A stretch of DNA of 64,000 nucleotides from a virus (IMGVR_UViG_3300028840_002524:52196-116195); one strand, 5' to 3'; positions 13,613 to 45,752 are shown, numbered from the stretch's first letter. Notes: a model not told the origin generated them from the sequence alone. Program-made: numbers and translations.

Positions 13613-14446
13613 ATGAAATACACCGTATTGCGGTACGAATACGACGCCGACGGGGAGACAAAGCGCAAGACGGCCATCTTGCCCGGGTTTTTTGGGCCGG
13701 GGAGTCCGCTCCTCGCCGCGTACCTGAAACGGGTACACCCCGAATACATTCCCCGGAGGCCGTCGGTGCGCCTCATGCAGTTCGACGACACGGTGCCGTC
13801 GTTCTATGACCTATTCGGGTACTGGAGTGCGTGCTCGGACTGCTCCCTCGGCGAGACGGCCAACAAGCGGGCCTTTTACAGGGGTCCCCTCACGGCCGAG
13901 ATCATGTGCATCGGAGAGGCCCCTGGCGCCGAAGAGGACCGCGTGGGGCTACCGTTCATTGGGAGGGCCGGTGACTTCCTCAACTGGCTCCTGGAACAGG
14001 CTGGAATCGACCCTGACGCCGTTTTGATCGCCAACACGACCCTCTGCCGCCCCACAGGGCCCTCGGGGAAGGACCGGCCTCCTACGCCCACCGAGGTGGG
14101 GGCCTGCATCAAACACCTTCGGGACCTCCTGCACGTCGTAAAGCCGAGGGTCGTGGTCCTCATGGGCGCAACGGCCCGGGATGCGTTCACGCGCTCGAAA
14201 ATCGACTGGGAAACGCGGTTCAGCCTGGACATCCCCACCACATTCGGCCTCATCCATCACCCCGCGTGGTTCCTGCGGAGCGGCGGGAAGGAGGCCAAGG
14301 AGGTTTCCAAGGCGACCGCGCTCCTGTATTCCCTCAAGGTGGCGGCCGAGCGAGGCCGTAAGCGCCTACGGCCCGAGGTTGAATGGGAGAACCTGTTGTG
14401 GCCCTCTGTCGAGCGGGCCATCAAGCACTGCAAGGGGGATCAATGA
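13613..14446 (+). CDS. Uracil-DNA glycosylase family 4 (Fe-S)
   Basis: 'CSDCSL...IGEAPGAEED..GLPFIGRAG..L...NTTLCRP...RPPTPTE...C...HPAW'. Confidence 0.9.
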   Translation: MKYTVLRYEYDADGETKRKTAILPGFFGPGSPLLAAYLKRVHPEYIPRRPSVRLMQFDDTVPSFYDLFGYWSACSDCSLGETANKRAFYRGPLTAEIMCIGEAPGAEEDRVGLPFIGRAGDFLNWLLEQAGIDPDAVLIANTTLCRPTGPSGKDRPPTPTEVGACIKHLRDLLHVVKPRVVVLMGATARDAFTRSKIDWETRFSLDIPTTFGLIHHPAWFLRSGGKEAKEVSKATALLYSLKVAAERGRKRLRPEVEWENLLWPSVERAIKHCKGDQ

Positions 14447-16662
14447 GCAAGAAGCCGAGCCCGGCCGCGATCCGGAAGGAAATCCTCAAGCGTACGGACA
14501 TAGACATGCCCTATGACCCCAACCCGATCCAGTGCGCCGGGTGGCAGGTTCTCCCGGACCACGAGGAGAATATCGTGGTGGCGACGCAGGCGTCCACCGG
14601 AAAGACCTTCTTCCTGGAGATGGCGCTCGCCCTGGGCGGCGGAGGCGTCTACGTGACCCCCACCAAGGCCCTGTGCGAGCAGAAACACGACGATTGGACC
14701 AAGGACGGCCACCCCTTCGGGCAGTCCATCGTGGTCAAGACAGGGGATCACCCGAGCGACAACGCCAAACTGCTCTCGAAACGCAAGTTCAAGCTCATGA
14801 CGCCCGAGGCGTTCGGGTCTGCCACGCGCAACCTGAATACGAACCTGTGGCTCAAGGACCTTCGAGCCCTCTGCCTGGACGAAATACACCATTTCGGGAG
14901 CGACGGCCGGGGCCACAAGCTCGAAGCGGGCCTCGTGGACTTCTTCAATTCGTTCCAGAATTGCCGTGTGATCGCCGCCAGCGCCACGTTGCCCAACGCC
15001 AAGGAGATCGGAACGTGGCTCACGCGCCTGAACGGCCGTGAAACATTCGTGATCGAGAGTCCGTGGCGCCCGCAGCCCCTCTACAAGCATTTTATCCCCT
15101 TCACCTACCTCCTCGGGAGCGGCTCCTACTACGTGAACGAGGTGGAGATGGTGAGCAACGCGGCCCAGCTCGCCATGAGCAAGCCCGACGAGAAGTACAT
15201 CTGCTTCGTGCACACGAAGAATGCCGGGTGGAAGCTGAAAAAGGCCCTCGAAGAGGCTGGAGAGCAGCCCGAATTCCACAATGCCGACCTGAACCTCGCC
15301 AAGCGCAAGGACCTGGAAGAGCGTTTCACGGCCGGGGACATCCGGGTCCTGATCGCTACCTCGACGGTGGCCGCCGGGTGTAACTTCCCGGCCCGAAACG
15401 TGGTGGTATGCGGGGTGTTCCGGGGGAAATCCGACGTGGACCCTCGGGACCTCATCCAGATGGGCGAGCGGGCAGGGCGCCCAGGCTTCGATCCGAAGGG
15501 GGACGCCTACTACCTCCTCCCGTCCCACGAAGTGGACAAGTGGAAGGAACTCCTCGCGTCACCCCCTCCCATCGCGTCCAAGATCAACGAGATTTCGAAC
15601 CTCGCGTTCCACCTGATCGCGGGGATTGCCAAGGGCCGAGTGACCAATGAGGCCGAGCTGGAGACGTGGTTCTCGAAAACCTTCGCTTTCCACACCGGCG
15701 AGCCGGTCACGGAGGCCAAGCACATCATCGACCGGCTCATGCGGGCCAAGGCCGTGGTGGTCGAGGACGGAAAGTGGGAAGCGACGGCCCTGGGACGTGC
15801 GGCCGCCAATTTCTACTACGATCCGTTCGACATCTTTGCTTGGCACGCCAACCTCCTGCGGCTCAAGGCCGTGGGGATGAAGGACCCGGAACGCATCCCC
15901 GACATCGTTCTCGCGTGGGTGTTCGGGAACGCCCCCTCCGGGTCCTCGGATTTCATCACAAAGGACTGCCAACCGTTCGTGGATATGGTCCGAAACCGGC
16001 TCGAACACGTGTCGATGCAGCTCGGTCTTGGTCTCCAGCCCATGAACACCATGATGGGCATCTCGGCGGCCTACGCGGCGCTGCAAGATCCCGAAGAGCA
16101 CCCGGATGATGGGTTCCCCGGGGGCATCCGGTTCGGAATGTTCAACCTCCAGGGCGACGCCGAGCGCATTGCGGCCGTTATGTGCTTCGTGAACGACAGC
16201 ACCAAGCTCGGGATGCGCGACGTGATCGAGAAAACCCTCATCCGGATGAAATACAGGGTGCCCTACGAGGCCGTGGCCCTGTGCCAGATCAAGCACGTAG
16301 GCGGCTCGCGGGCCATGGCCCTCCTGCGGCGCGGGATTAGGACACCGGCCGACGTGGTGGACAATGCCGACCGGGTGTCGGAGATGTTCGGCAAGCCGGG
16401 CGCCTGGATCGTGGATGATGCCGAGCGCCTCGCGCACAAGTCGGGGCATTCCAACCCCAAGTTCGCGGCCCACTCCTGGGCCACCAAGAAGAAGGAGGAG
16501 AAGAGCGCCCCGGCCAAGAAAAAGGGTGTCCCAAAGAAGAAGGGAATCAAAAAGGGAGTGAAGAAGGGAGTAAAAAAGGGAGTGAAGAAGGGCGTCAAAA
16601 AGGCCGTAAAGGGCCGAAAGAAGGGTGTCAAGAAGAAAATTAAACCCAAGAAAAAGGCGTGA
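14443..16662 (+). CDS. Ski2/Hel308-like superfamily 2 helicase with a KKGV-repeat basic tail
   Basis: 'TGKT', 'PTKAL', 'DEIH', 'SATLPN', 'ATSTVAAGCNFPA', 'QMGERAGRPGFD'; winged helix and HhH 'LCQIKHVGGSRA'. Confidence 0.85.
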   Translation: MSKKPSPAAIRKEILKRTDIDMPYDPNPIQCAGWQVLPDHEENIVVATQASTGKTFFLEMALALGGGGVYVTPTKALCEQKHDDWTKDGHPFGQSIVVKTGDHPSDNAKLLSKRKFKLMTPEAFGSATRNLNTNLWLKDLRALCLDEIHHFGSDGRGHKLEAGLVDFFNSFQNCRVIAASATLPNAKEIGTWLTRLNGRETFVIESPWRPQPLYKHFIPFTYLLGSGSYYVNEVEMVSNAAQLAMSKPDEKYICFVHTKNAGWKLKKALEEAGEQPEFHNADLNLAKRKDLEERFTAGDIRVLIATSTVAAGCNFPARNVVVCGVFRGKSDVDPRDLIQMGERAGRPGFDPKGDAYYLLPSHEVDKWKELLASPPPIASKINEISNLAFHLIAGIAKGRVTNEAELETWFSKTFAFHTGEPVTEAKHIIDRLMRAKAVVVEDGKWEATALGRAAANFYYDPFDIFAWHANLLRLKAVGMKDPERIPDIVLAWVFGNAPSGSSDFITKDCQPFVDMVRNRLEHVSMQLGLGLQPMNTMMGISAAYAALQDPEEHPDDGFPGGIRFGMFNLQGDAERIAAVMCFVNDSTKLGMRDVIEKTLIRMKYRVPYEAVALCQIKHVGGSRAMALLRRGIRTPADVVDNADRVSEMFGKPGAWIVDDAERLAHKSGHSNPKFAAHSWATKKKEEKSAPAKKKGVPKKKGIKKGVKKGVKKGVKKGVKKAVKGRKKGVKKKIKPKKKA

Positions 16663-16703
16663 CCTTGACGGTCGCTCCGCCATCAAGATAAGCTGAGACT
16701 TGT

Positions 16704-17660
16704 ATGTCCTCCAGAAAGCTCATCGACCGGTTCCCAGCTCTATTCTGGTCCCCCGAGGAGTTCGACTCCCCGGACACCGGCGCTGTAATTGCACCGACGG
16801 CCACCGTTCTGCGCCGTGAGGACCTCCCCCCGGCCGCTGCTAAGGTGGACACGGCCGCATACCTTCGTGATTTCTTCAAGGCCAAGCTCGGCGAGGAAGT
16901 AAGCGACCCTCCCAAGCCGGTAACCGGAGACGTTCTCGTGGTGGGCGGCGAGGACGGGGAGCCCGAGATCAGCATCGGCAAGGTGGGAAACGACCTTATT
17001 AAGTCTTTGAACGCATACGCCGAAGAAAAGATCGACAAGAGTTTATTCGTTTCCACCCCCCTCATCGGGGGGCCTAACCTCCTCAAGCTCTTCGGCATCA
17101 AACCCGAGGACGTGCCGCAGGCCGAGGAGTCAGAGGGATTCGTCAAGTTTGAGGATCTTGAACTCACGCATGGAGAGTTCAAACAACTCACGGCGCTGGC
17201 GAAAGAAATCGAGAAAAAAACGGGCCACAAGCCCGACATCGTGGCCCTTGGGAAGTCTGCCAAGGAGGGCACGCCGTACCACCATGAGACCGCCGACGGT
17301 CCGATCAACGTGGACATTCAGAAGGTGGGCGGTAAGAGCACCTTTGCCGAGGATGTGGAGTGGGTGCAGAAGAAGCTCATGGAGGGCCTCCAGCTCACGC
17401 CAGAGATGCTCGGTACCGCGTGCGTAGGAACAGGCAAGTCCATGATGGCGTTCGAGGCCGCAGCAAACGCCGCCAAGAACGCGAAGAATGGGAAGTGCTC
17501 GGAGTGTTTCTGGTTCGAGCACGCCATCATGGACCCCCTTTCCGGGAAGCCCGTGCACGTGGAGTGCACGCACGAGAAGGTGAGCGTGGAGTTCGCTACC
17601 GAGAAGTTCATTGTCGGGAACAAGGTTCCCTGTTTCGGATTCGAGGATGCAAGCGACTGA
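16704..17660 (+). CDS. Hypothetical protein with C-terminal Cys cluster
   Basis: 318-aa ORF ending 'CSEC...ECTH...PCFGF'; candidate promoter TTGACG/TAAGCT upstream. Confidence 0.6.
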   Translation: MSSRKLIDRFPALFWSPEEFDSPDTGAVIAPTATVLRREDLPPAAAKVDTAAYLRDFFKAKLGEEVSDPPKPVTGDVLVVGGEDGEPEISIGKVGNDLIKSLNAYAEEKIDKSLFVSTPLIGGPNLLKLFGIKPEDVPQAEESEGFVKFEDLELTHGEFKQLTALAKEIEKKTGHKPDIVALGKSAKEGTPYHHETADGPINVDIQKVGGKSTFAEDVEWVQKKLMEGLQLTPEMLGTACVGTGKSMMAFEAAANAAKNAKNGKCSECFWFEHAIMDPLSGKPVHVECTHEKVSVEFATEKFIVGNKVPCFGFEDASD

Positions 17661-18201: not shown

Positions 18202-18203
18202 GA

Positions 18204-18716: not shown

Positions 18717-18729
18717 CACAGGAGGACCA

Positions 18730-19821
18730 ATGCACAGCGAGGACTCTCTCCCTCTGAGTCAGCAGTTCAGGGAATCCGCCTATTTCAAGGACACGATACG
18801 CCCAGACGGGGCGTTCCTCTACGCCACCCTGCGACGCATCGCCCTGCGCGAGGCCCTCCCGGCCGACGTGCGGGCCACCCTCGGGCGAGGGTGCATCGCG
18901 GCCTGCGTGACCATCCCCGCCCTCTCGGCCCAGGTGGGCCGGTCGAAGAACACGGTACGCGCAAAACTCCAAGTTCTGGAGGACGCCGGGTGGATCCAGC
19001 GCAAGGAGCGCATCGGCCTCCCGTCCGCGTATGTTCTGGCCGACAGCTCGGGGTATTTCGCCGACAAAGTAATGCTCGCCATGGGCGAAGGACCCGTCTG
19101 TTCCGACGGGACCCCTCCAAAAATTGGAGGGGTGGCGAGAAAGGAAGCTACGCCAAAACGTAAGCGAGGGCGGAAGAAAGGTGTTCGCAAGCTGTCCGGA
19201 AGCTGCGGCGCAAGCTGCGCCGAGGCCGAGGATTATGGCGTATGCGGCAGCTTTCCGGAAGCTTTGGCCGTTTCAGACCCCTCCAAAAATTGGAGGGGTG
19301 GCGAAAACAATAATATAGGTAGATATATAGCTTCTTTAGATACTAATAATAGCTCTCCTCTTTTTGTTCACGCCACCCCTCCAAAAATTGGAGGGGTTCA
19401 AAACCCTCTCGAAAAACGCAAGCGCGGTTGGGAGAAGCTCCCGGTTGATCGGTGGGGGCACACGACCCTCTGGGCGATGATCTCCGACCGCCTCCTCGAA
19501 ACAGGAATCGCACCGCTAACCTTGGACACGAAATCCCGGGCTTCCATGCGGTCCCTTGCCAAGACCTACCCGATGGATGAGCTCCAGAGGGTGGGCGAGT
19601 TCTTCGCCGAGCACTACCGCGAGCTACGGAACGTGTACGACTGGCGGGGCTCCCCTCGGGGCGGCCTATTCGCCGGGTGGTATACGACGATCCGGGAGCA
19701 CGCCGACGGCCGCGCCATCACGAAGCGCGGAGCGAAGGAGAGCAAGGAACGGGGATCACAGAGCATGGACGAAATCCCGAGGATTCGAAAGTTCAAGGGG
19801 AGCAAGCATGCGACGCCGTGA
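18730..19821 (+). CDS. Replication initiator protein (HTH; lambda O-like organisation)
   Basis: N-terminal wHTH 'TIPALSAQVGRSKNTVRAKLQVLEDAGWI'; internal iterons; immediately upstream of the loader and DnaB. Confidence 0.7.
   Translation: MHSEDSLPLSQQFRESAYFKDTIRPDGAFLYATLRRIALREALPADVRATLGRGCIAACVTIPALSAQVGRSKNTVRAKLQVLEDAGWIQRKERIGLPSAYVLADSSGYFADKVMLAMGEGPVCSDGTPPKIGGVARKEATPKRKRGRKKGVRKLSGSCGASCAEAEDYGVCGSFPEALAVSDPSKNWRGGENNNIGRYIASLDTNNSSPLFVHATPPKIGGVQNPLEKRKRGWEKLPVDRWGHTTLWAMISDRLLETGIAPLTLDTKSRASMRSLAKTYPMDELQRVGEFFAEHYRELRNVYDWRGSPRGGLFAGWYTTIREHADGRAITKRGAKESKERGSQSMDEIPRIRKFKGSKHATP
19111..19397. repeat. Putative replication origin: three identical 23-bp palindromes plus an AT-rich core
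   Basis: ACCCCTCCAA-AAA-TTGGAGGGGT at 19111-19133, 19277-19299 and 19375-19397; AT-rich tract at about 19305-19368. Confidence 0.8.
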
Positions 19822-22229: not shown

Positions 22230-22236
22230 AATCGGC

Positions 22237-23293: not shown

Positions 23294-23315
23294 CACAAGT
23301 TTGGAGGACACAGGT

Positions 23316-24212
23316 ATGGGATTCGCAACACGCGGGATGGGGGAGGCGAACAACGTCCCTTCCTCATCGAGGGTCAAGCCGCAGTTCGAAAAGCGTCTCT
23401 TCCTTCGCCCTGGGGATGAGATGGACATCGTTCTGCTGGACGACAATTCATTCAACATCTGGGAACACGGGATGTTCCTCAAGGGCGACAAGCAGGCGTC
23501 CAAGATCAAGGTCACCTGCCCCGACGGCACGGCCGACGGCGACCCCAAGGAGTGCCGAATCTGCAACGCCATGATTCGCCACGACCTCATCGGCCGCAAC
23601 TGGAGAGGGTTCCTCACCGTCGTGGACCTGTCCAAGCGCACCTGGAGAGGCAAGACGTACGTTGACGTGAAGAAGCTTCTCCCGCTGGACAAAAAGACGG
23701 CCATGATCCTGGAGCGCAAGCGGGACAAGCGCGGATCCCTGGTGGGGGCGCAGATGCACCTCTACCGCACGGACGGGAACTCCAGCTCCGTGGGCGACGA
23801 CTGGGAGCTCGTGGACATCGAGGACCCCAAGAAGCGGTTCAAGAACTCCCCCCAGATCGAGCGTACCATCGACTGGGCCAAGAAGAAGGACGGCACGATC
23901 CTGACGCGCAGTCAGGCCCTCGCCGTGTTCTGCTCCCCTTACGACTACAACGAGGTTCTCGCCCCCGATGCCAAGAAGGTCCGGTACTTCCTGGCCTACA
24001 TGGGAATCGACGATAGCGTCCAGGGCGGCGAGGAGGAGCGCGAGGAGGAGAACAACACCGTCGAGTACGGCAATCCCGAAACGCCCCCGGACGATGGAGT
24101 CGAGGAGGGGGGAGAAGAACGCCAGCGGGCGCCTGCCAAGAAAGCCGGGAAGAAAAAGGGTGTCAAGAAGAAGGGCGTCAAGAAGAAGGGTGTCAAGAAA
24201 AAGGGACGCTGA
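23316..24212 (+). CDS. Single-stranded DNA-binding protein (T4 gp32-like)
   Basis: RBS GGAGG; 'H...C...C..C' metal site; OB-like core; acidic stretch followed by a KKGV tail; located between primase and polymerase. Confidence 0.7.
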   Translation: MGFATRGMGEANNVPSSSRVKPQFEKRLFLRPGDEMDIVLLDDNSFNIWEHGMFLKGDKQASKIKVTCPDGTADGDPKECRICNAMIRHDLIGRNWRGFLTVVDLSKRTWRGKTYVDVKKLLPLDKKTAMILERKRDKRGSLVGAQMHLYRTDGNSSSVGDDWELVDIEDPKKRFKNSPQIERTIDWAKKKDGTILTRSQALAVFCSPYDYNEVLAPDAKKVRYFLAYMGIDDSVQGGEEEREEENNTVEYGNPETPPDDGVEEGGEERQRAPAKKAGKKKGVKKKGVKKKGVKKKGR

Positions 24213-24384: not shown

Positions 24385-24385
24385 G

Positions 24386-27977: not shown

Positions 27978-28640
27978 ATGGCGAAGAAGAAAAAAGGACG
28001 CGGCAGGCCACCGAAGCACAAGTCTGAAAAGGCTCGGAGCAAGCATCGCCGTGAGCACGGTCTCCAGTATTACCAGGACAACAAGGAGGAGATCAGCAAG
28101 AAGCGGGCGAAGCGGTGGAAGGATGACCCGGAGTACCGGGAGCGTGTCCGCAAGCGCGGGGAGGAGGAACGTGCGCTCCAACGGGCCAAGAAGCACGAGG
28201 AGCGTCTGGGGGAGGACAAGATCAAGAGCGAGCAGTATTGGAAAGGGCGCCGCACGCTCACCCCTCGCGTGGTGATGCTCGGCGGCAAAGAGGCGACCGT
28301 TTTCTCCTCCGGGGTCCTCGGCCGTGCGGTCTACCGAACGATGCCCACAGTCCGACGGTGGATCGTCAACCGCGTGCTGCCCGGCTATTCGTGGCAGGAC
28401 GAACACGGCCGGTACTGGTTCACCAGGGAGTTCTGCCAAGCGGCCCGAAGGGCCATCGAGAAGGTGTACCTGTACGACGGGCGCCGGGGCGAGACCGTGA
28501 CGAGGCAGCTCCTCATCGAGGAGCTCACGAGCGCAGGCATTACTTGGAGCCCCTTCGATGAGCCAGCCAAGAAAAAAGGGCGTAAGAAAAAAGGCCGTAA
28601 AAAAGGCGCCGGGAAGAAAGCGGGAAGTAAGTCTCGGTGA
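27978..28640 (+). CDS. Basic DNA-binding protein with a MerR-like HTH
   Basis: 'GVLGRAVYRTMPTVRRWIVNRVLP...GRYWFTRE'; Lys/Arg-rich termini. Confidence 0.6.
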   Translation: MAKKKKGRGRPPKHKSEKARSKHRREHGLQYYQDNKEEISKKRAKRWKDDPEYRERVRKRGEEERALQRAKKHEERLGEDKIKSEQYWKGRRTLTPRVVMLGGKEATVFSSGVLGRAVYRTMPTVRRWIVNRVLPGYSWQDEHGRYWFTREFCQAARRAIEKVYLYDGRRGETVTRQLLIEELTSAGITWSPFDEPAKKKGRKKKGRKKGAGKKAGSKSR

Positions 28641-28950
28641 GATCGGGGAGGTCCTGCGCCTCGACACCCGCGTGGTCCGGACAAAGCATACCGGCGAGGA
28701 TGCCCGGGTTGACGATGGCGTGGAGACCGTGATCTTCCCGCCCGGCATCCCCATCGCGCAGGTGGGGGTCGAGGTGAACCGTTCCATGGAGATCACGGGA
28801 AACCACTGGTTTTCCTGCAAGGTGATCACAACCCGCAACGTGGTGGACACGGCCCCGGCCGTCACCGCGATGCGCGAGGAGCTCTATGAAGAGTCCCTCG
28901 AATTCATCGACAACAAGGTGAAAGAAGCCATCGAGGAGGTGAGCACGTGA
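28558..28950 (+). CDS. Hypothetical protein (start uncertain)
   Basis: Good codon usage after about 28640; GTGA overlap with the next gene. Confidence 0.5.
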   Translation: MSQPRKKGVRKKAVKKAPGRKREVSLGEIGEVLRLDTRVVRTKHTGEDARVDDGVETVIFPPGIPIAQVGVEVNRSMEITGNHWFSCKVITTRNVVDTAPAVTAMREELYEESLEFIDNKVKEAIEEVST

Positions 28951-29263: not shown

Positions 29264-30742
29264 ATGGCGAAAGCAAAGCGTGACCTGGGGGGCTCCCCCG
29301 AGAAAGGCCGTGAGCGCATCCGCGTGGCCTCCGAGATCATCAACAAGAAGTACGGCACCCACACGGCCCTCCCTTTGAACGTGGCGGCCGTCGCCGACGT
29401 GGAGCGCCTCCCTTTCGGCGTGCTGTCCCTGGACTGGAAAACGCGGGGAGGGATCGTCGTGGGCCGGGTGAACCGGCTGTGGGGGAAGAAGAGCACCCTC
29501 AAGACAACCCTGTGCCTCCGGGCCGTCGCGCAGGCGCAGCGGCACTGCCGCCACTGCAAGGCCCCCATCGTGCAGGACCCGGTGACCGAGAAGCGGAATT
29601 GCCGGTGCCCGAACCCGAGATTCACCATGGCGAACCCGGAGCAGTTCAGCCTGCTCACCCAGGAGCAAACGATCCAGACGCGCTACGGCATCCTCCCGGG
29701 CCCGGCCACGCTGAAAAATCCCTGGGTCACGGTCAAGAACAGTAGCGGAAAGAACATCAAGGTGCTGTTCGAGGAGACGGACCGGAACGAGCCGTGGCGC
29801 TGCATTTTCATCGACACCGAGCGCACCATCGACAAGAAGTGGGCCCAGAACAACGGCGTGGACACCTCCCTCGTGGCCCTCGTGGGCGGCAAGTGGGCCG
29901 AGATGGTCCTGGACACTACCGAGGAGCTCATCCTCACGGGCGACTTCGACCTCATCGTGATCGACTCTCTTGCCATGCTCACCCCCGAGGACGAGGTGAG
30001 CAAGTCCCACCGGGAGAACCCCAAGGTGGCCGGGCAGGCCGGGGTCATGACGCGGGCAGTCAAGAAGTGGCTCAGCGCCATGAACGAAGAGGGGCTCATG
30101 AATCGCTACGCCCCCACCATCCTGTGCACCGATCAGGTACGCATGAAGGGGATCGGCTACGGGCAGCACGCCCATCTCGCGCCAGCGGCGTCGAACGCCA
30201 TCGACCACTCCCTCTCCCTCGACATCGGGATGCGGGCCGGGGGCTACGAGTTCGACGGGGACGTTGCCAAGTACGGGACCTTCGACTACACGGTGGACAA
30301 GAACAAGGCCGGTGGATCTCCCAAGGTGAAAGGGTCCTTCCGATTCTGGCTCAAGCCCACACGCGGCCGGGCCGTCGGTGACGTGGAGGACATGAAGGTC
30401 GTGATGGCGGAGGCCCGCAGCCTCGGGATCATCGAGGACGGCAAGGGCAAGTACACCCTCCTGTCCGAGTACCTGGAGGAGGGGGAAGAGACCTTCAAGA
30501 CCCTCAAGGCCCTCACGGCATTCCTCGAAAATAACCCGACCGTCTACGCCGATGTGCGTGCCCGGACCCTCCAATGCCTCATCATGAAGGATGAGGAGGG
30601 CGAGATCGTGCTCGGTTCAGAGGCCGAGAAGAAGGTCGAAGAGAAGCCTGTTGAGGCTGTCGAGAAGCCGAAGCGCAAGCAGGGCAAGAAAAAGGGTGTC
30701 AAGAAGAGCGAGAACCCTCTCACCCAGAAGTTCAAGGTGTGA
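29264..30742 (+). CDS. recA: RecA/UvsX-like recombinase with a Cys-rich insertion
   Basis: 'G.LSLD...GGI..GR...G..STLKTT', 'FIDTE', 'IVIDSLA'; about 90-aa insertion with CRHC/CRC after Walker A. Confidence 0.85.
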   Translation: MAKAKRDLGGSPEKGRERIRVASEIINKKYGTHTALPLNVAAVADVERLPFGVLSLDWKTRGGIVVGRVNRLWGKKSTLKTTLCLRAVAQAQRHCRHCKAPIVQDPVTEKRNCRCPNPRFTMANPEQFSLLTQEQTIQTRYGILPGPATLKNPWVTVKNSSGKNIKVLFEETDRNEPWRCIFIDTERTIDKKWAQNNGVDTSLVALVGGKWAEMVLDTTEELILTGDFDLIVIDSLAMLTPEDEVSKSHRENPKVAGQAGVMTRAVKKWLSAMNEEGLMNRYAPTILCTDQVRMKGIGYGQHAHLAPAASNAIDHSLSLDIGMRAGGYEFDGDVAKYGTFDYTVDKNKAGGSPKVKGSFRFWLKPTRGRAVGDVEDMKVVMAEARSLGIIEDGKGKYTLLSEYLEEGEETFKTLKALTAFLENNPTVYADVRARTLQCLIMKDEEGEIVLGSEAEKKVEEKPVEAVEKPKRKQGKKKGVKKSENPLTQKFKV

Positions 30743-34253: not shown

Positions 34254-35027
34254 ATGGACCTGTTCTCCGAGAAAGCAATTCGGAAACTCACACCGGGCGA
34301 GATCAGGCTCCAAGTGGAGTCGATTGCGTCCGGAATTCACCAGAACAACTACGCCCTGGGGGGCTTCATTCAGCGGGTCCGGTCCGACGGCCTGTGGAAG
34401 AAGTGGGGAAAGAGGACCTTCCAGTCCTTCGGCGACTGGTGTTGGGCCATCCTGGGGTTCAAGGATCGAAAGGCCGAGGAGCTCTCCAAGATCCACGGGC
34501 GCCTCCAGGAACTCGAAGTCTCCGGGAAGGTCAAAAGCGAGCTCGTGAATCAGGGATGGACCAAGCTCCGGTTCCTCTCCCGGGTTGTGGATGAGGACAA
34601 CGCAAAGGAGTGGCTCGACAAGTCGAAGATGCTCTCCTCGCGTGCCCTCGAAGCGGAGGTCCGCATCGCCAGCGGCGACCCCGATCCCGATACCGAGGAC
34701 GGCGACGATCCTGACCCGGAGCCGAAGCCCAAGCGCGTCCGCATGGGCCTGGAGTTCGACCACCCCGACGACTTCCGCTTCGTGACTGATATTATGGCGG
34801 TAATCGAGCGCCGCACCGGGGAGCGCAGCAACGGTCGTATTATCTCCATGATGGCGACAGCCTACGCGGCCATGCACGTCCGGGACGATGAGGGTGGCAT
34901 GGCGGTCGAGGTCGAGCGGATGCTCCAGGCCATGGAGCGCGACTACGGCATCCAGCTCGGCATCATGAACCCGGTGCACAAAAAGGGCAGGAAAAAGGGC
35001 GTGAAGAAGAAAGTCAAGAAAGCGTGA
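34254..35027 (+). CDS. Hypothetical DNA-binding protein with a KKGV tail
   Basis: 'LWKKWG..FQSFGDWC...LG...RKA' and 'GWTKL' pattern seen in phage DUF3102/ParB-associated proteins; candidate promoter TTGACA-17-TAGCTT at 34195-34223. Confidence 0.55.
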   Translation: MDLFSEKAIRKLTPGEIRLQVESIASGIHQNNYALGGFIQRVRSDGLWKKWGKRTFQSFGDWCWAILGFKDRKAEELSKIHGRLQELEVSGKVKSELVNQGWTKLRFLSRVVDEDNAKEWLDKSKMLSSRALEAEVRIASGDPDPDTEDGDDPDPEPKPKRVRMGLEFDHPDDFRFVTDIMAVIERRTGERSNGRIISMMATAYAAMHVRDDEGGMAVEVERMLQAMERDYGIQLGIMNPVHKKGRKKGVKKKVKKA

Positions 35028-36140: not shown

Positions 36141-36141
36141 G

Positions 36142-40949: not shown

Positions 40950-41106
40950 CGACACCCGAATCATCGTGGCCTACAAGTCCGAGTGCCCCATGGCGAAGGA
41001 CGGCAAGCACGAGTGGAAGATGGGGAGCGGCGACGCGGGCAACATGCCCTCCCTGGAGTGCGCCCTCTGCGGCCAGCTCACAACCCAGAGGAAGCTGTGC
41101 GACTGA
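40930..41106 (+). CDS. Small zinc-finger protein (58 aa)
   Basis: Translated by hand: '...ECP...KHEW...ECALCG'; RBS GAGGGG. Confidence 0.5.
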   Translation: MKSSSSDDTRIIVAYKSECPMAKDGKHEWKMGSGDAGNMPSLECALCGQLTTQRKLCD

Positions 41107-42149
41107 TCGAACTCGACCAGCTTTTCCTCGTGCTTGAGGATGACCCAGGGATCGGCGACATATCGGACCCCTTCTCTGGGATCGGCGCCCAGGCGCGTGA
41201 GGACATCGCCCCGGCCCTCGAAGCGTATCGACGGTGGGAGAAAGACCAGCTCCTATCGTGGTCCATCGCGGAGAGCAAGGCTGTGGGGAGCGTCGCGTAC
41301 GAGCCCTTTTCGAGGGGGCGCGAGTTTGCCAGCATCGCGGCTCGGCGCCCCTCCTACGCCCGCGAAATCCGCTACGAACTCTCCTCAGCCAGGAAGATAT
41401 TCAACCGTATCCAGGCCGATCTCAGCGCCAAGCTCTTGCGCCTGACCCGCGAATTCTCCGATGGGGAATACACGGCGGCCGAGTACCAGCGCCTCTCCGC
41501 CGAGATGCTCACGGACTACTACGAACGGGCGTTCAATGCGGGACGAAAGGCTTCGGGCCTCCCCAAGTTCATGCCGAAGCAGACGCAGCCCACGCAGTGG
41601 GAGCGGTCCTGGTTCCGCTCGGCCGTTCGACAGGAGCTCGCGTTCTGGAACAATTTCGTGGCCGATCTCGCGGCCGGGCGCGTCCAGTTCGCCCCGAAAG
41701 ACATCAACGTGCTCCCGAGACCCCCGGCGCGTCCCTACTTCGCCGAGGAGCGCATCGGGATGTTTGTCAAGTCCCTGGAGTCCATGTTCGACTCGGCCCG
41801 GGTCACCGGCCTCCCCGAGAACGTCCTCATCTACTGGAGCGGCCCCGGCCTCACGGACAAACGAATCTGTGCCGGGTGCGCGTACATCGTGGAGAGGCAG
41901 CCCTTCCCCAAGGACCTTGTACCGGCGGTACCCCGTGCGGGGATGACGCCCTGCCTAACAAACTGTAGGCACCGTCTCCTGGTACGCAAGGCCACCTCGA
42001 AGGAGATCACGCAGCGAAAGCGGGCCCTCCCGAAGAGGGCGTCCATGGTGGCCGGGCTGGAGAAGATCATGAAGGAGCGTCGCGGCGGGGGCCGTAGGCG
42101 CTTACGCAAGCCCCGGGGCGCCCTCACGAATCCGTGGGGGAACAAGTAG
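41097..42149 (+). CDS. Putative head morphogenesis/minor capsid protein
   Basis: Close to the portal gene; C-terminal 'W......C..C......P..G.T.C.TNCRH.L' resembles Mu gpF-like proteins. Confidence 0.55.
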   Translation: MRLIELDQLFLVLEDDPGIGDISDPFSGIGAQAREDIAPALEAYRRWEKDQLLSWSIAESKAVGSVAYEPFSRGREFASIAARRPSYAREIRYELSSARKIFNRIQADLSAKLLRLTREFSDGEYTAAEYQRLSAEMLTDYYERAFNAGRKASGLPKFMPKQTQPTQWERSWFRSAVRQELAFWNNFVADLAAGRVQFAPKDINVLPRPPARPYFAEERIGMFVKSLESMFDSARVTGLPENVLIYWSGPGLTDKRICAGCAYIVERQPFPKDLVPAVPRAGMTPCLTNCRHRLLVRKATSKEITQRKRALPKRASMVAGLEKIMKERRGGGRRRLRKPRGALTNPWGNK

Positions 42150-42682
42150 TGTATCTCCTTGCCCTGGACCTCGGCGTGGCCGGTTGTGGCGCGTGTCTCT
42201 ACAACATCCGAACGGGTGACCTGGACCGCGTGAGCGGTGTCACCACCAAGAAGAACGGCAAGTTGACTGCCACGGTGGATGACTTCCGGAGAATGGGAGA
42301 GGTCCTCGACTTCTTGCAGGAGTTTCGGGATGAGCCCGTGGTGGGGGTGGCTTTCGAGGCACCGGCGGGGGCGAAGAGCGCCGACGCGGCCAAGAGCCTC
42401 GCCACGGGGCGCACGATGGCCTACATGATCGCTCGGGAGGACAAGCTGCCCTGGCGAGCGTACACCGTAGGCGCTTGCAAAAAGGCTGTGGGGCTCAAAG
42501 GGAACGCCAAAGCGGACAAGTCGATCACCCAAAAAGCGGTGATGGACCGGTGGCCCATGGCGCTGTGGCCCCTGGGGCAGAAGCATTTCGAGGACGCGGC
42601 CGACTCTGCGGCCGTGGTGTTGGCGGCCGAGAAAGACGGCTTTATTGAGGCACTGAAAGAGCGATGGAAACACCTCCTGTAA
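42149..42682 (+). CDS. ruvC: RuvC-like Holliday junction resolvase
   Basis: 'LALDLG', 'AFE', 'KKAVG..GNA..K', 'EDAADS.AV'. Confidence 0.82.
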   Translation: MYLLALDLGVAGCGACLYNIRTGDLDRVSGVTTKKNGKLTATVDDFRRMGEVLDFLQEFRDEPVVGVAFEAPAGAKSADAAKSLATGRTMAYMIAREDKLPWRAYTVGACKKAVGLKGNAKADKSITQKAVMDRWPMALWPLGQKHFEDAADSAAVVLAAEKDGFIEALKERWKHLL

Positions 42683-42966
42683 GCAAGATCATGCTCGAAA
42701 TCGACGGCCTGTTCTATCCCCAGACCGTTTTCGACGCCATGCTCAACAAGGTCATGGAGGAGGTCCTCCAGGGGATCATCAACCGTTCAAAGTCTCCCCG
42801 GCGCACCGTGCTGCGCCTCAAGGCCCTCAGATCGACGGCCGTACGCGACCGCGTGTACAGAGAGGCCATGAAGCGTACCAAGGATTCCGTGCCCGGTCTC
42901 AGGCCCAAAGAGATCGACGATTCCTATACCCTCCTTTCTCGAAAAACATCCCAGAAATCCGCTTGA
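42664..42966 (+). CDS. Hypothetical protein
   Basis: Good codon usage; overlaps the end of ruvC. Confidence 0.5.
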   Translation: METPPVSKIMLEIDGLFYPQTVFDAMLNKVMEEVLQGIINRSKSPRRTVLRLKALRSTAVRDRVYREAMKRTKDSVPGLRPKEIDDSYTLLSRKTSQKSA

Positions 42967-42991
42967 CAATCCGTTCGTGATAGCATAAGAT
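42963..42991 (+). promoter_or_regulatory. Sigma70-like promoter, near-copy of the 13578 promoter
   Basis: TTGACA-ATCCGTTCGTGATAGCA-TAAGAT. Confidence 0.75.
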
Positions 42992-43009
42992 TCAAGCATT
43001 CGAACGTGA

Positions 43010-43615
43010 TTGGAGATGCACATGGATGACGAAAAACGGGCCCTTCTCCACGAGGCCATCATGCTCAAGGGGAAGCTTGACTTCTTCGAGAAGAAGTACA
43101 AGGAGACCAAGGCGGCCCTCCGGATGCTCATGGAGGAGGACGGCGATGCTTTCCTCGACACGGAGGACGGCAGGGCGTTCTACAAGAGCGGATCGGCCAC
43201 CATGCTGACCGATGACGGCGCCACCATCGCCCGTCTCCTGCACAAGGACGAGCTCGTGGACCTCATCGCCGGGAAGAAGCTCACGAAGGGGGATGCAAAT
43301 TTCCTCCTCACGGTCACCACCGGCCGCAACATCTCCAAGCTCCTCACCGAGGTTCCCTCGCGCTCCTTCACCGCCGAGAAAGCCCGTACCAAGGCCGAGA
43401 AAGCCCGTATGCAGGCGGCCATCGACGCGGAAGCCGAGGAGGCCATGAAGGACCTCCGCGAGCGCGTGAACCGCTTCCGCAAGCGCCTGGGCCTGGGGCG
43501 TAGCGAGCGCCTCGGGGAGCCGAAGGGCAGAGCGGCCGCGTACAGCGGAAAGGGGCGCCCGAGGAAGGGCGGAAAGCCCGCGAAGAAAAAGGCCGCGAAA
43601 GCGAAAAAGAAGTAA
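43010..43615 (+). CDS. Hypothetical protein with a Lys/Ala-rich tail
   Basis: Helical 201-aa ORF ending 'KPAKKKAAKAKKK'. Confidence 0.6.
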   Translation: MEMHMDDEKRALLHEAIMLKGKLDFFEKKYKETKAALRMLMEEDGDAFLDTEDGRAFYKSGSATMLTDDGATIARLLHKDELVDLIAGKKLTKGDANFLLTVTTGRNISKLLTEVPSRSFTAEKARTKAEKARMQAAIDAEAEEAMKDLRERVNRFRKRLGLGRSERLGEPKGRAAAYSGKGRPRKGGKPAKKKAAKAKKK

Positions 43616-43661
43616 ATAAACCCCGCATTTCCACCGATATGAAGTATGGAGGATTTCCCCG

Positions 43662-44315
43662 ATGGCAAAACTTTCCCTGAACGACCTTGTGTCGAGGATT
43701 CGGGAGCTCATCCCAGAGGGGTGTTCCCTGGTCATCGACCACAGCCGGGTCCTGACAGTGGGCACCCCCAAAGAGGAACCGCCGAAAAAGGAGGAACCGC
43801 CCGCGAAGGAGGACCCCGACGACATCGACCTCGGCGAGCCCCCTCCGGAAGAAGGGGCCGACGGCGCTGGCGACAGCGGAACCGAGGAAGCGGCCCCCGA
43901 AGAGCCCGAGGCGGAAGAAGGGGCCGAGGAAGAGGGCGACTTCTGGAAGCCCGAGGAGCGGTGCCAAGTCGAGATCGACGGCAACAAGTACCCCGGAACC
44001 GTCAAGGAAGTGAACGACGAGACCGAGAAGGTGTTCGTGGTGTTCGATGACGGGGACGAAGCGTGGTACGCGGCCGACGCCCTGGAGACCCTCGAACCCG
44101 AGGAAACCGGCGGCGACGACGACAAGGGCTCCTTTGGCCTGGAGGCCCTCGGCCTGCCCGCCAAGATCCACGAGAAGCTCGAAGCCGAAGGGTACGCCAC
44201 CGTGGGCGAGGTCCAGGAGGCCCTCGACGACGGCACCCTCGAAGAGCTCAAGTCCATCCCCAAGGCGGCGCTCTCATCCATCAAGAAGTCCGTGAAGAGC
44301 TTCGCCACCAAGTAA
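43662..44315 (+). CDS. Acidic protein with a Tudor/SH3-like domain and an alpha-CTD/HhH-like C-terminus
   Basis: 'DGNKYPGTVKEV.....VFVVFDDGDEAW' and 'LEALGLPAKIHEKLEAEGYATVGEV...LKSIP'. Confidence 0.55.
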   Translation: MAKLSLNDLVSRIRELIPEGCSLVIDHSRVLTVGTPKEEPPKKEEPPAKEDPDDIDLGEPPPEEGADGAGDSGTEEAAPEEPEAEEGAEEEGDFWKPEERCQVEIDGNKYPGTVKEVNDETEKVFVVFDDGDEAWYAADALETLEPEETGGDDDKGSFGLEALGLPAKIHEKLEAEGYATVGEVQEALDDGTLEELKSIPKAALSSIKKSVKSFATK

Positions 44316-44349
44316 CCCTCTCAAGCTGGGCGGCTACCAGCGGCGGATA

Positions 44350-44383
44350 GGGGGCGGCCTACGGGTCGCCCCCGCTTTTTTTT
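44350..44383 (+). terminator. Rho-independent terminator
   Basis: GGGGGCGGCC-TACG-GGTCGCCCCC followed by T8. Confidence 0.85.
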
Positions 44384-44498
44384 GCGACTGTCGGTAGCGA
44401 CAGTCGTTCATTTTTTTACCATTTCTATGTGCAATCGCACTGCGATATGGTACACTCCCGGTTGTCAGCACAGTGAATCCGCAGCACAGGAGGATGCT

Positions 44499-45752
44499 AT
44501 GGGCAAGAAAAAGGGAGTTCGCAAGGCCGTCGGTGGCGGCAAGAAGAAGGGTGTCAAGACGCCCAAGAACCGGCACATCGTCGGAACGTATGTGAACACC
44601 AGCACGCTCCGGGAGGCGCCCGATCTCAAGCTCCGGGAGGTGGACAAGGAGTCTGCCGAGTTCAAGGAGCTGGTGGCCTCAATCGAAAAGCACGGTTTCT
44701 ACGACCCCATTCTCGTGACCATCCGGGACGGCTTCCCGCACGTGGTGGACGGTTACAACCGTCTTGCTGCGGCCCGGGAGGTGGGCCTCAAGGAAGTGCC
44801 CATCACGCAGGCCGACGGTACGCGGGAGAAACTCATCCTCGCGGCATTCGACCTTTCCACCCGGCGGATCAACATGAGCGCCATGACGGAGGCTCGCGCC
44901 GTCGCCAGGGCCATGGAAGCCCTCGGTACCCGAAAGGCCAAGGAGGTGGCCGAGCGGATGGGGCGCTCAGAGCGATGGGTGTCGATCCACACGCAACTCC
45001 TCGACCTCCCGAAAGCCCTCCAGAAGGGGCTCGACGGCGGCGACACCAACGTGACCGTGGGCAAGTGCTACGACCTCCTGCGCCTCCATCCGGATGACAG
45101 GTCCAGGTTCGTGGGGAAATTGCGTGAGCTCACGGAGCCGTTCTTTCGGGACCACATCGAGACGGCCGTGCAGAACGGCAAAGCCCAGTGGGTGGACGGA
45201 CGCAAGCAGCCTCGCAAGAAAAAGGCCGCCAAGAGGACCCCCGAGGAGCAGGCCGACAAGCACCGGCACACTCCGGAGACCGTACGGGAAACCCCGGCCG
45301 CGCCCGTGGTGACCGTCTCGGGAACTCCTGAGCCCGTTGTCGAGGCCCGTTCGGTGGGCGAGCTCCAGCGCGGGATCCGCAAGGCCGAGGCCAGCCTCCA
45401 GAAGTACGAGAACAAGAGGGAGGCAACGGCGGCCAAGGCCAAGGAGAAAGTGAAGGACAAGCTCAAGGGGAAAGCCCTCCAGGAGTACGTGGAAGAGCGC
45501 CTCGCCACCTTCGACAGGAAGAACTACGGACAGATCGTGTTCCTCCGTGGGCAGATCGCGTTCGGTCTCTTCTCGTTGAACCTGAACCCGGACGCGGACA
45601 GCCTGGAGGCCGCCCTCAAGGAGTGGCGCAAGGAAAAGGGCCTTGACAAGCCCGCGAAGAAAGCGGCCAAGAAAAAGGCGTCGAAGGGGAAACCCGCGAA
45701 GAAGAAAGCGGCCAAGAAGAAATCCCCCAAGAACAGCAAGGGCAAGAAGTAG
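44499..45752 (+). CDS. ParB/Srx-like protein with histone H1-like basic termini
   Basis: 'ELVASIEKHGFYDPILV...VVDGYNRLAAA'; HTH 'KEVAERMGRSERWVS'; AKK-rich tail. Confidence 0.85.
   Translation: MGKKKGVRKAVGGGKKKGVKTPKNRHIVGTYVNTSTLREAPDLKLREVDKESAEFKELVASIEKHGFYDPILVTIRDGFPHVVDGYNRLAAAREVGLKEVPITQADGTREKLILAAFDLSTRRINMSAMTEARAVARAMEALGTRKAKEVAERMGRSERWVSIHTQLLDLPKALQKGLDGGDTNVTVGKCYDLLRLHPDDRSRFVGKLRELTEPFFRDHIETAVQNGKAQWVDGRKQPRKKKAAKRTPEEQADKHRHTPETVRETPAAPVVTVSGTPEPVVEARSVGELQRGIRKAEASLQKYENKREATAAKAKEKVKDKLKGKALQEYVEERLATFDRKNYGQIVFLRGQIAFGLFSLNLNPDADSLEAALKEWRKEKGLDKPAKKAAKKKASKGKPAKKKAAKKKSPKNSKGKK

What the first reader, a model, noticed from the sequence alone, without database searches (positions are those of the whole stretch)
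14443..45752. A shared lysine-rich KKGV/KKG[VR]K terminal tag on many unrelated DNA-handling proteins
Seen: the same low-complexity motif recurs, usually at a terminus. It is on the Hel308-like helicase (KKKGVPKKKGIKKGVKKGVKKGVKKGVKK, about 16490-16660), initiator (RKKGVRK, about 19170), SSB (KKKGVKKKGVKKKGVKKKGR, about 24140-24209), HTH protein 27978 (KKKGRKKKGRKKG), ORF 28558 (RKKGVRKK), RecA (GKKKGVKKS, about 30680), ORF 34254 (KKGRKKGVKKKVKK) and ParB (MGKKKGVRK..KKKGVK, plus an H1-like AKK tail). ORF 43010 has a related AKK tail. I did not see it on baseplate, portal or large terminase proteins. Established: SSBs normally end in acidic tails, and RecA and Hel308 lack such tails. Inference: the tag is a phage-wide address label that targets proteins to a replication compartment, DNA/polyphosphate condensate or the nucleoid, marks them for virion packaging, or serves as a modification substrate.
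Basis: partly seen in the sequence, partly recalled or inferred. Interest (0 to 1): 0.78.

Follow-up and report, generated by a model that had tools for sequence, protein, structure and literature searches.

The report
Lysine tails on phage DNA-binding proteins
An uncultured 116-kb phage and its close relatives have added short, floppy, positively charged lysine tails to nine proteins that bind DNA. The tails most likely hold these proteins on DNA or on an acidic partner, and nothing shows that they work as a specific postal code.

Summary
KKG[V/R/I] occurs 20-21 times in the called proteome against about 2 expected. All occurrences lie in + strand genes between window 14443 and 45752.

Nine proteins carry a tail or basic patch:
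- a Hel308-like helicase
- a gp32-type SSB (fold match Z 9.9)
- an AT-hook/HTH protein
- ORF 28558
- RecA
- ORF 34254
- ORF 43022
- ParB
- an initiator-like protein, where the patch is a weaker internal linker

Each tail is a 12- or 15-nt in-frame tandem array, adds +8 to +30 charge, and lies beyond the conserved fold.

A 131-kb relative carries tails on the same seven orthologues with different sequences (KKGL, KKGR). More distant relatives (RecA 46-49% identical) have poly-K tails. The next clade out has none, and there the SSB has a P/Q/G linker with an acidic tip. So composition is conserved, not the motif.

The core replisome, nucleases, terminase, portal and virion proteins are untagged.

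Best reading: non-specific electrostatic tethers, like the lysine repeats of actinobacterial TopA, Ku and Hlp. A charge-based link to the SSB's acidic linker is possible.

"Address label" is only partly supported. The host is unknown. This scan has noted similar lysine tails before on other phage genomes; I did not check those notes.

The parts
14443..16662 (+). Hel308-like SF2 helicase (739 aa). The C-terminal lysine tail is residues 691-739, coded at 16513-16659: 26 K, no acidic residue.
   Evidence: DEAD and Helicase_C domains in Pfam; phrog_6819 E 2.5e-56. Tail sequence. Tandem array of 12/24-nt units at 16536-16603. Of 150 representatives, only the 55% and 49% identical relatives have lysine low-complexity tails.
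18730..19821 (+). Initiator-like wHTH protein (363 aa) with an internal basic patch KRKRGRKKGVRK at 19159-19194, in an interdomain linker.
   Evidence: Translation. Weak wHTH hits below the Pfam cut-offs. The relative has RGRKKGLPK at the same place.
23316..24212 (+). gp32-type single-stranded-DNA-binding protein (298 aa). An acidic linker (14 D/E in 35 residues, about 24027-24131) is followed by a lysine tail at 24132-24209.
   Evidence: AF2 model pLDDT 76.8. Foldseek top six hits are all T4/RB69 gp32. VIA-align Z 9.9 and 9.5, next unrelated hit 4.6. Linker and tail measured. Tandem array of 15-nt units at 24150-24205.
27978..28640 (+). Putative regulator (220 aa). N-terminal AT-hook-like tail MAKKKKGRGRPPKHKS (27978-28025) and C-terminal tail KKKGRKKKGRKKGAGKKAGSKSR (28566-28637).
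   Evidence: phrog_19880 'transcriptional regulator', E 1.1e-5. Tails. Both are conserved in the relative.
28558..28950 (+). ORF of unknown function (130 aa). Its lysine-rich N-terminus (28558-28629) is coded in the +1 frame over the tail of gene 27978, so 83 nt code for two proteins.
   Evidence: Sequence. The ATG inside TTCGATGA and lysine-rich reading in both frames are conserved in G000, G001 and L197. In G000 and G001 no other canonical start lies upstream of the conserved residues.
29264..30742 (+). RecA/UvsX-like recombinase (492 aa). C-terminal tail at 30674-30739: a lysine patch GKKKGVKK followed by the conserved tip NPLTQKFKV.
   Evidence: PF00154 E 1.1e-27; phrog_97. Tails of 34 phage homologues compared. 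Tree.
34254..35027 (+). Protein of unknown function (257 aa; phrog_17202) with C-terminal tail HKKGRKKGVKKKVKKA at 34968-35024.
   Evidence: Orthologues in G001, L198 and L199 have lysine tails; those in L200, L204 and L209 do not. The Atlas gives only leads to helical DNA-binding domains.
43022..43615 (+). Protein of unknown function (197 aa) with a basic tail containing GKGRPRKGG (AT-hook-like) and PAKKKAAKAKKK, coded at 43517-43612.
   Evidence: The orthologue in G001 also has a basic tail.
44499..45752 (+). ParB-like protein (417 aa). N-terminal tail MGKKKGVRKAVGGGKKKGVKTPKNR (44499-44573) and a 42-residue AKK-type C-terminal tail (45624-45749).
   Evidence: Pfam HTH_ParB and KorB pass their cut-offs; ParB_N scores 25.9 against 26.3. 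Seventeen PHROG ParB families hit. Tandem array of 15-nt units at 45656-45733. Both tails are present in two orthologues.

Best explanation
The tags are intrinsically disordered, lysine-rich low-complexity tails. They arose by in-frame expansion of 12- or 15-nt repeats at gene ends and have been kept by selection for positive charge.

They most likely act as non-specific electrostatic tethers to DNA. They raise the affinity, residence time or processivity of proteins that coat or scan DNA or act on it stoichiometrically: the gp32-type SSB, RecA, ParB, the branch-migration helicase, the AT-hook regulator and three unknown proteins. As a consequence they concentrate these proteins on the nucleoid or on replicating phage DNA.

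Shown:
- the presence, placement and statistics of the tails
- their tandem-repeat origin
- the restriction to DNA-binding proteins
- conservation of charge but not sequence in orthologues
- gain or loss of the tails together across relatives

Inferred: DNA binding by the tails and its effect on the proteins' activity.
For: (1) The motif is about ten-fold enriched and terminal. Tails occur in 7 of 35 module genes against 1 of 73 elsewhere.

(2) The carriers are nucleic-acid binders by Pfam, PHROG or fold. Two tails contain AT-hook-like GRP cores.

(3) The tails lie beyond the conserved folds. 146 of 150 helicase representatives end at the HhH domain without a lysine-rich end, and two of the other four are only helical lysine-rich ends. 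Phage RecA homologues at 48% identity or less end acidic or neutral.

(4) G000 against G001: tails are 42-68% identical while cores are 67-80% identical. Lysine counts and lengths are kept and there are almost no acidic residues. The same seven orthologues are tagged.

(5) The flavour tracks genome GC. It is poly-K or KKL at 42-54% GC and KKG[VLR] at 56-65% GC, so charge matters and sequence does not.

(6) In the 83-nt overlap between genes 27978 and 28558, both reading frames stay lysine-rich in three genomes.

(7) Synonymous codons vary among repeat units and TRF matches are 70-90%, so the arrays are old and maintained, not fresh slippage.

(8) Precedent: lysine repeats of Streptomyces TopA stabilise the enzyme-DNA complex and give processivity (PMC5714199). 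The PAKKA repeats of M. smegmatis Ku modulate DNA binding (PMC3553676). Lysine-rich low-complexity regions are enriched in prokaryotic DNA-binding proteins (PMC6821194).
Against: - There is no biochemical evidence.
- DnaB, primase, DNA polymerase, RNase H, the resolvases and the exonuclease bind DNA yet lack tails, so 'more DNA affinity' is not needed across the board.
- A basic tail on an SSB right after an acidic segment could be auto-inhibitory or mediate protein-protein contacts, not DNA contacts.
- Removing the lysine tail of Ku increased its DNA affinity (PMC3553676), so effects can be modulatory.
- Co-variation across genomes fits one ancestral event. It therefore does not show repeated co-evolution.
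Confidence: 0.6

Rival explanations
1. Charge-coded assembly. The strongly acidic linker of the gp32-type SSB acts as a hub, and the lysine tails on RecA, the helicase, ParB and the others are its clients. The SSB's own tail would give head-to-tail cooperativity. On ssDNA this builds a replication and recombination zone, possibly a coacervate. It would replace the usual contact between the SSB acidic tip and a pocket on each partner.
For: All eight gp32-like proteins of the tailed lineages have an acidic linker (10-28 D/E in 32-52 residues) followed by a lysine tail. The two from untailed relatives have a 200-290-residue P/Q/G-rich linker ending in an acidic-hydrophobic tip (EHDPASF, EEPFGI) and no lysine tail. 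In the same genomes RecA and the 34254 orthologue have tails in the first group and none in the second, with no discordant genome. T4 gp32 uses its acidic C-terminal domain to contact replisome partners (established knowledge; review PMC3012046 listed).
Against: The pattern fits a single phylogenetic split, so the correlation counts as one event. Nothing shows binding or phase separation. The AT-hook-like cores point to DNA as the ligand. This reading does not exclude the best explanation.
Confidence: 0.2
2. The tags are a specific address label read by a receptor. It would direct import into a phage compartment, or mark proteins for packaging into the virion.
For: The tails resemble classical nuclear localisation signals, and several unrelated proteins share them. 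A 75-aa lysine-rich protein is encoded next to the putative capsid gene.
Against: Relatives conserve composition, not sequence. No homologue of the phiKZ nuclear-shell protein was found in G000 or in the complete G001 (single-sequence search). No virion or head-cargo protein carries the tag. Earlier notes of this scan place head cargo in two giant polyproteins that use protease-site linkers, which is a different route (unchecked).
Confidence: 0.05
3. The tails are neutral by-products. Slippage-prone purine-rich repeats expand at gene ends where they do no harm, and they have no function.
For: The tails are tandem arrays of 12- or 15-nt units. The same KKGVKKGVKK-coding repeat occurs sporadically in many bacterial genomes, mostly in short, probably non-coding ORFs.
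Against: The tails are restricted to DNA-binding proteins (P = 0.0015). The same orthologues are tagged at 46-78% identity with different repeat units. The lysine frame is always kept, although the other two frames of the same DNA would read R/A- or E/G-rich. The two overlapping frames at 28558-28640 are both conserved. Acidic residues are almost absent.
Confidence: 0.07
4. The tails bind another polyanion (polyphosphate, RNA or anionic membrane lipids), or they are substrates for lysine modification.
For: Polybasic peptides bind any polyanion. A kinase-like protein (45921-47951) and a PAPS-reductase-like protein (52167-53441) are encoded nearby.
Against: Nothing specific supports this. The tails have few Ser/Thr residues and no hydrophobic anchor. 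All carriers are DNA proteins. No lysine-modifying enzyme was identified.
Confidence: 0.08

Closest known systems
C-terminal lysine repeats of actinobacterial topoisomerase I (Streptomyces TopA; PMC5714199)
   Same: A lysine-rich low-complexity extension is appended to a conserved DNA enzyme in a GC-rich genome. It lies outside the catalytic fold and is lineage-specific. In TopA the repeats stabilise the enzyme-DNA complex and give processivity, which is the mechanism proposed here.
   Different: TopA is a single cellular enzyme. Here nine unrelated proteins of one phage module carry the tails, and the repeat unit (KKGV, KKKGV or KKKGR) differs. DNA binding by the tails is untested here.
PAKKA/AKKA repeats of mycobacterial Ku and Hlp/HU, and H1-like tails (PMC3553676; PMC6821194)
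   Same: The C-terminal tails of ParB and ORF 43022 are of this AKK type. The idea that lysine-rich low-complexity regions evolved repeatedly to modulate unrelated DNA-binding proteins is stated in PMC3553676.
   Different: Those are host nucleoid and repair proteins. Here the carriers are phage SSB, RecA, helicase and ParB, and the tails are gained or lost as a set across a phage lineage.
T4/RB69 gp32 (PDB 1gpc, 2a1k; Pfam PF08804)
   Same: The core fold matches (Z 9.5-9.9), the Cys-rich Zn-ribbon position is shared, an acidic segment follows the core, and the gene lies between primase and DNA polymerase.
   Different: The Pfam gp32 model does not hit. A lysine tail of 19-32 residues follows the acidic segment, so the protein ends basic instead of acidic.
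Phi29 terminal protein N-terminal domain (PMC4357725)
   Same: It works like an 'address label'. Sequence-independent DNA binding by a basic region puts a phage replication protein on the nucleoid and is needed for efficient replication.
   Different: The phi29 region is a folded domain of one protein in a protein-primed system. Here disordered repeat tails sit on many proteins, and PHROG places the polymerase with DNA polymerase I-type families.
AT-hook (core GRP flanked by basic residues)
   Same: KKGRGRPPK at the N-terminus of gene 27978 and GKGRPRKGG in the tail of ORF 43022 match the core by eye.
   Different: Most tails (KKGV, AKK) lack the GRP core, and the Pfam scan listed no AT_hook match.

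Membership tests
Lysine-rich low-complexity DNA-binding tails (TopA / Ku / Hlp / H1-like kind) | A lysine-rich, acid-poor low-complexity stretch at a terminus, outside the conserved fold | tested here: met
   Tails of 16-49 residues with 8-26 K and 0-2 D/E. Homologues end without them.
Lysine-rich low-complexity DNA-binding tails (TopA / Ku / Hlp / H1-like kind) | The carrier is a DNA-binding protein | tested here: met
   Helicase, RecA and ParB by Pfam or PHROG; gp32 fold. Three carriers (28558, 34254, 43022) remain of unknown function.
Lysine-rich low-complexity DNA-binding tails (TopA / Ku / Hlp / H1-like kind) | The tail binds DNA non-specifically and changes affinity or processivity | not testable with these tools
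   This needs EMSA or single-molecule assays with tail deletions.
Lysine-rich low-complexity DNA-binding tails (TopA / Ku / Hlp / H1-like kind) | PAKKA/AKKA-type repeat unit | tested here: inconclusive
   The C-terminal tails of ParB and ORF 43022 are AKK-type. The other tails use KKGV, KKKGV or KKKGR units.
gp32-type SSB (PF08804) | gp32 core fold (OB fold with a Zn-binding subdomain) | tested here: met
   Foldseek ranks 1-6 are all gp32 (1gpc, E 4.7e-4). VIA-align Z 9.9 (171 residues, rmsd 4.6 A) and 9.5; the next hit is 4.6. C68, C80 and C83 are invariant or nearly invariant in the family alignments.
gp32-type SSB (PF08804) | Match to the Pfam gp32 sequence model | tested here: not met
   No Pfam family at E <= 0.01. 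A profile search against PDB sequences was empty. The Atlas gave only a lead: gp32 on 18% of the nearest named cluster.
gp32-type SSB (PF08804) | Acidic C-terminal domain at the very end | tested here: not met
   An acidic segment is present but a lysine tail follows it.
RecA (PF00154) | RecA ATPase core | tested here: met
   PF00154 scores 97.6 bits against a cut-off of 27.
ParB (PF02195 / PF17762) | ParB N-terminal domain and ParB HTH | tested here: met
   HTH_ParB scores 25.8 against 22.6 and KorB 25.7 against 22.3. ParB_N scores 25.9, just under its 26.3 cut-off. Seventeen PHROG ParB-like families hit.
Hel308/Ski2-like SF2 helicase | DEAD and Helicase_C core with a C-terminal HhH domain | tested here: met
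   DEAD 73.6 bits and Helicase_C 46.6 bits; HHH_5 weak (17.6 bits, below cut-off). phrog_6819 E 2.5e-56. Homologues end in HhH-like GIGxxRA motifs.
AT-hook | GRP core flanked by basic residues and recognised by the Pfam AT_hook model | tested here: inconclusive
   KKGRGRPPK and GKGRPRKGG are visible in the sequence. The Pfam scan at E <= 0.01 listed no AT_hook match; the model is very short.
Phage-nucleus (chimallin) system with imported proteins | A nuclear-shell (chimallin) protein is encoded | tested here: inconclusive
   phiKZ gp54 used as a query found nothing at E <= 1 in G000 (85% complete) or G001 (100% complete). This was a single-sequence search with no positive control.

The most novel reading that the evidence does not exclude
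A lineage of phages runs a charge code for its DNA machinery. The gp32-type SSB swapped the usual neutral linker and acidic tip for a polyacidic linker plus a lysine tail. At the same time RecA, a branch-migration helicase, ParB and several small DNA-binding proteins acquired lysine tails. The set then assembles on ssDNA or the SSB through multivalent electrostatic contacts, possibly as a condensate, in place of specific docking of the SSB tip.
Probability: 0.2. Interest if true: 0.8.

Novelty: new variant of a known kind. Interest (0 to 1): 0.5.

Why it matters
Lysine-rich tails are known on single bacterial DNA proteins such as TopA, Ku and HU. My two literature searches found no description of coordinated use on a whole set of phage replication, recombination and partition proteins.

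Three features stand out:
- a gp32-type SSB that ends basic
- a gene overlap in which both reading frames encode lysine tails
- presence or absence of the tails as a set across related genomes

If the tails tether proteins to DNA or to the SSB's acidic linker, they give a simple, transplantable way for phages to organise their DNA machinery. They would also provide a sequence signature for spotting DNA-associated proteins among phage genes of unknown function, here ORFs 28558, 34254 and 43022.

The same theme has been noted by this scan in unrelated phages. It may therefore be a general and under-described strategy.

Tried and rejected
- **Host lineage from the motif.** Scanning 185,579 bacterial and archaeal genomes for KKGVKKGVKK-coding DNA gave more than 120 hits across many phyla. 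Most were short ORFs or 12-nt tandem repeats, so there was no host clue.
- **Motif in other viruses.** KKKGVKKK occurs in 63 IMG/VR stretches. Nearly all are 30-40% GC and non-coding or chance matches.
- **Salt-in halophile adaptation.** Rejected: the proteome has D+E 13.8%, K+R 12.5% and a median pI of 6.0.
- **Cultured relatives.** None found. tblastn of the SSB gave no match, and RecA and the helicase matched at 34% identity or less.
- **First AF2 run of the SSB.** With 6 sequences it failed (pLDDT 37.5). A 10-sequence core alignment worked.
- **The look-up of encoding contigs.** The long contigs of P0006, P0039 and P0040, which are possible independent gains, could not be examined.
- **The genome search.** It does not draw relatives for a virus record and does not hold the metagenome contigs L197-L209. 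The helicase and ParB of those relatives were therefore not seen.
- **ParB scan of IMG/VR.** Nothing found; the orthologue was reached through the G001 handle.
- **Source names.** The listing of cluster members returned none.
- **mRNA-level roles.** A-rich start regions, or a ribosome-binding site for the next gene, were considered. Most tails are C-terminal and 42-520 nt from the next start, so this was rejected as the main explanation.
- **NCBIfam and the Atlas.** Neither gave a function for ORFs 28558, 34254 or 43022.

Full report
**Setting.** The window is bases 52196-116195 of a single 116,195-bp virus record. CheckV rates it about 85% complete with linear ends. It is 59-65% GC and almost all genes are on the + strand. 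No cultured phage is close: RecA and the helicase match at 34% identity or less, and the SSB-like protein has no match at all.

All quoted peptides are present where stated.
- A six-frame scan of the whole record finds KKG[VRI] only in + strand ORFs between window 14383 and 45752, apart from one hit in a spurious antisense ORF.
- In 108 called proteins the motif occurs 20 times. About 1.9 are expected, and 200 shuffles gave at most 6-7.
- Lysine-rich ends (at least 8 K in 20 residues near a terminus) are found in 7 of 35 genes of the 13.7-48 kb module and in 1 of 73 elsewhere (P = 0.0015).
- The one exception is a 75-aa lysine-rich protein just downstream of the putative capsid gene, outside the window.

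**Who carries the tails.**
- A Hel308-like SF2 helicase (DEAD and Helicase_C; phrog_6819, E 2.5e-56).
- RecA (PF00154, 97.6 bits).
- ParB (HTH_ParB and KorB pass their cut-offs).
- The 'SSB', which no sequence library recognised. A model from a 10-sequence alignment (pLDDT 76.8) matches T4/RB69 gp32 and nothing else: Foldseek ranks 1-6 are gp32, and VIA-align gives Z 9.9 and 9.5 against 4.6 for the next hit. It is a gp32-type SSB with an acidic segment (14 D/E in 35 residues) followed by a tail of 26-30 basic residues.
- Gene 27978, a putative regulator (phrog_19880). Its N-terminus, KKGRGRPPK, looks like an AT-hook.
- ORFs 28558, 34254 and 43022, which have no assignable function.
- The 'initiator', which has only a short internal basic patch in a linker.

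**Who does not.** The DnaC-like loader, DnaB, RNase H, primase, DNA polymerase, a second SF2 helicase, two Holliday-junction resolvases, a Cas4-like exonuclease, large terminase, portal and all virion proteins are untagged. The tag therefore marks a subset of DNA-binding proteins. These are mainly ones that coat, scan or bridge DNA, not the DNA machinery as a whole.

**Anatomy and origin.**
- The tails add +8 to +30 net charge and contain almost no acidic residues.
- At the DNA level they are tandem arrays of 12- or 15-nt units: 16536-16603, 24150-24205, 28569-28604 and 45656-45733, with 70-90% matches. They grew by in-frame repeat expansion.
- Synonymous codons differ between units. AAA is only mildly over-used, 29% against 19% (P = 0.014).

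**One overlap, two lysine tails.** Gene 28558 starts at an ATG inside the conserved TTCGATGA of gene 27978. It reads the 27978 tail DNA in the +1 frame, which gives a second lysine-rich peptide. The ATG and lysine-rich reading in both frames are conserved in G000, G001 and L197. In G000 and G001 no other canonical start lies upstream of the conserved residues. This argues for selection on both tails. A programmed +1 frameshift that fuses the two proteins is not excluded.

**Relatives.** IMG/VR holds one complete relative, G001 (131,295 bp, terminal repeats, 65% GC). Its proteins are 65-80% identical to ours.
- It has lysine-rich ends on the same seven orthologues and on almost nothing else.
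- Tail sequences differ (KKGL, KKGR). Tails are 42-68% identical while cores are 67-80% identical, yet lengths and lysine counts are kept.

Metagenome contigs extend the series:

| Contig | GC | RecA identity | Tails |
|---|---|---|---|
| L197 | 56.5% | 61% | KKG-type on SSB, regulator and RecA |
| L198 | 53.6% | 49% | poly-K/KKL on SSB, RecA and the 34254 orthologue |
| L199 | 42.8% | 46% | poly-K/KKL on RecA and the 34254 orthologue (SSB not on the contig) |
| L200 | 71.7% | 43% | none |
| L204 | 60.5% | 44% | none |
| L209 | 67.4% | 38% | none |

- All eight gp32-like proteins of the tailed lineages have a polyacidic linker plus a lysine tail. The two from untailed genomes have a 200-290-residue P/Q/G-rich linker ending in EHDPASF or EEPFGI, much like a bacterial SSB linker and tip.
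- Among 34 phage RecA homologues, lysine tails occur in those at 59% identity or more. Below that, only two isolated cases (P0039, P0040) have them.
- Among 150 helicase representatives, only the 55% and 49% identical ones have lysine low-complexity tails.
- On a RecA tree the tailed proteins form the basal grade. The tail-less ones form one well-supported clade, SH-aLRT 99 (quick tree).
- The tails are thus present or absent as a set. This is consistent with a single gain or loss, so it is not statistical proof of co-evolution.

**What this means.** Relatives conserve charge, not KKGV, and the flavour follows genome GC. That fits an electrostatic function and argues against a label read by a sequence-specific receptor.
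- Known precedents are the lysine repeats of Streptomyces TopA, which stabilise the enzyme-DNA complex and give processivity (PMC5714199).
- The PAKKA repeats of mycobacterial Ku and Hlp are a second precedent (PMC3553676).
- More generally, lysine-rich low-complexity regions are enriched in prokaryotic DNA-binding proteins (PMC6821194).
- The phi29 terminal protein shows that non-specific DNA binding is enough to localise a phage replication protein to the nucleoid (PMC4357725).

I therefore read the tails as non-specific DNA tethers (0.6). The most interesting alternative, which does not exclude the first, is a charge pairing between the SSB's acidic linker and its partners' lysine tails (0.2). 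The other readings have little support:
- a specific label for a compartment or for packaging
- neutral slippage
- other polyanions or lysine modification

No phiKZ-type shell protein was found.

**What could not be done.**
- The host is unknown. The motif scan of bacterial genomes was uninformative and the proteome is not halophile-like. The test 'is the motif equally common in host proteins' therefore remains open.
The contigs that might show independent gains were not examined.

**Context.** Notes from this scan report lysine tails on DNA enzymes of other phages, including Lu11-like jumbo phages, other uncultured phages, and a gp32 with alternating acidic and lysine blocks. I did not check those notes. 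They suggest that the theme recurs. My two literature searches found no paper describing it for phages.

**Verdict.** The feature is real, conserved and non-random. It is a new variant of a known kind of DNA-binding tail, and the 'address label' reading is only partly supported.

Noticed in passing
window 28558-28640: An 83-nt overlap between gene 27978 and ORF 28558 in which both reading frames encode lysine-rich tails. It is conserved in three genomes. A +1 frameshift fusing the two proteins on the A-rich tract is not excluded.
   Followed up: partly
window 19178-19320 (inside ORF 18730-19821): Direct repeats with an 11-nt period (19178-19217 and 19245-19265), a 7-bp GC hairpin (19278-19298) and an AT-rich tract lie in the middle of the initiator-like ORF. 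The ORF has low GC3 (0.71) and an internal duplication (TPPKIGGV...KRKRG, twice). This could be a replication origin within the initiator gene, as in lambda O.
   Followed up: no
window 30674-30739 and RecA homologues P0008-P0010, L198, L199: After the lysine patch, RecA ends in a short conserved tip: NP[LF]TQKF[KE]V in close relatives and SLNEELFEVV or SLDDMFFDSLNL in the poly-K clade. It could be a protein-docking peptide.
   Followed up: no
genome 28054-28281 (outside the window, upstream) and window 11643-11834: Two small, very lysine-rich ORFs of 75 aa and 63 aa. The first lies directly after the putative major capsid gene and has a 66-aa counterpart in G001. It could be a DNA-condensing or head-associated protein.
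   Followed up: no
L200:420-2024 and L209:1-1014: In untailed relatives the gp32-fold SSB carries a 200-290-residue P/Q/G/Y-rich linker ending in an acidic-hydrophobic tip. This resembles the bacterial SSB linker and tip, but on a gp32-type core.
   Followed up: partly
window 45921-47951 and 52167-53441: A 676-aa protein with a kinase-like region (phrog_18609) lies right after ParB, and a PAPS-reductase-like protein (phrog_424) lies further on. Their roles are unknown.
   Followed up: no
window 60341-60432: A tRNA-Leu (anticodon TAG) is the only tRNA that ARAGORN found in the window.
   Followed up: no
L079, L080, L108, L114, L123, L137, L150 (bacterial genome contigs): In bacteria, KKGVKKGVKK inside long ORFs falls mostly in proteins of about 310-420 aa. 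There it is part of a degenerate (E/K)G(I/V)(E/K)(K/Q)G repeat near the C-terminus. Most other hits are short ORFs made of 12-nt tandem repeats.
   Followed up: no
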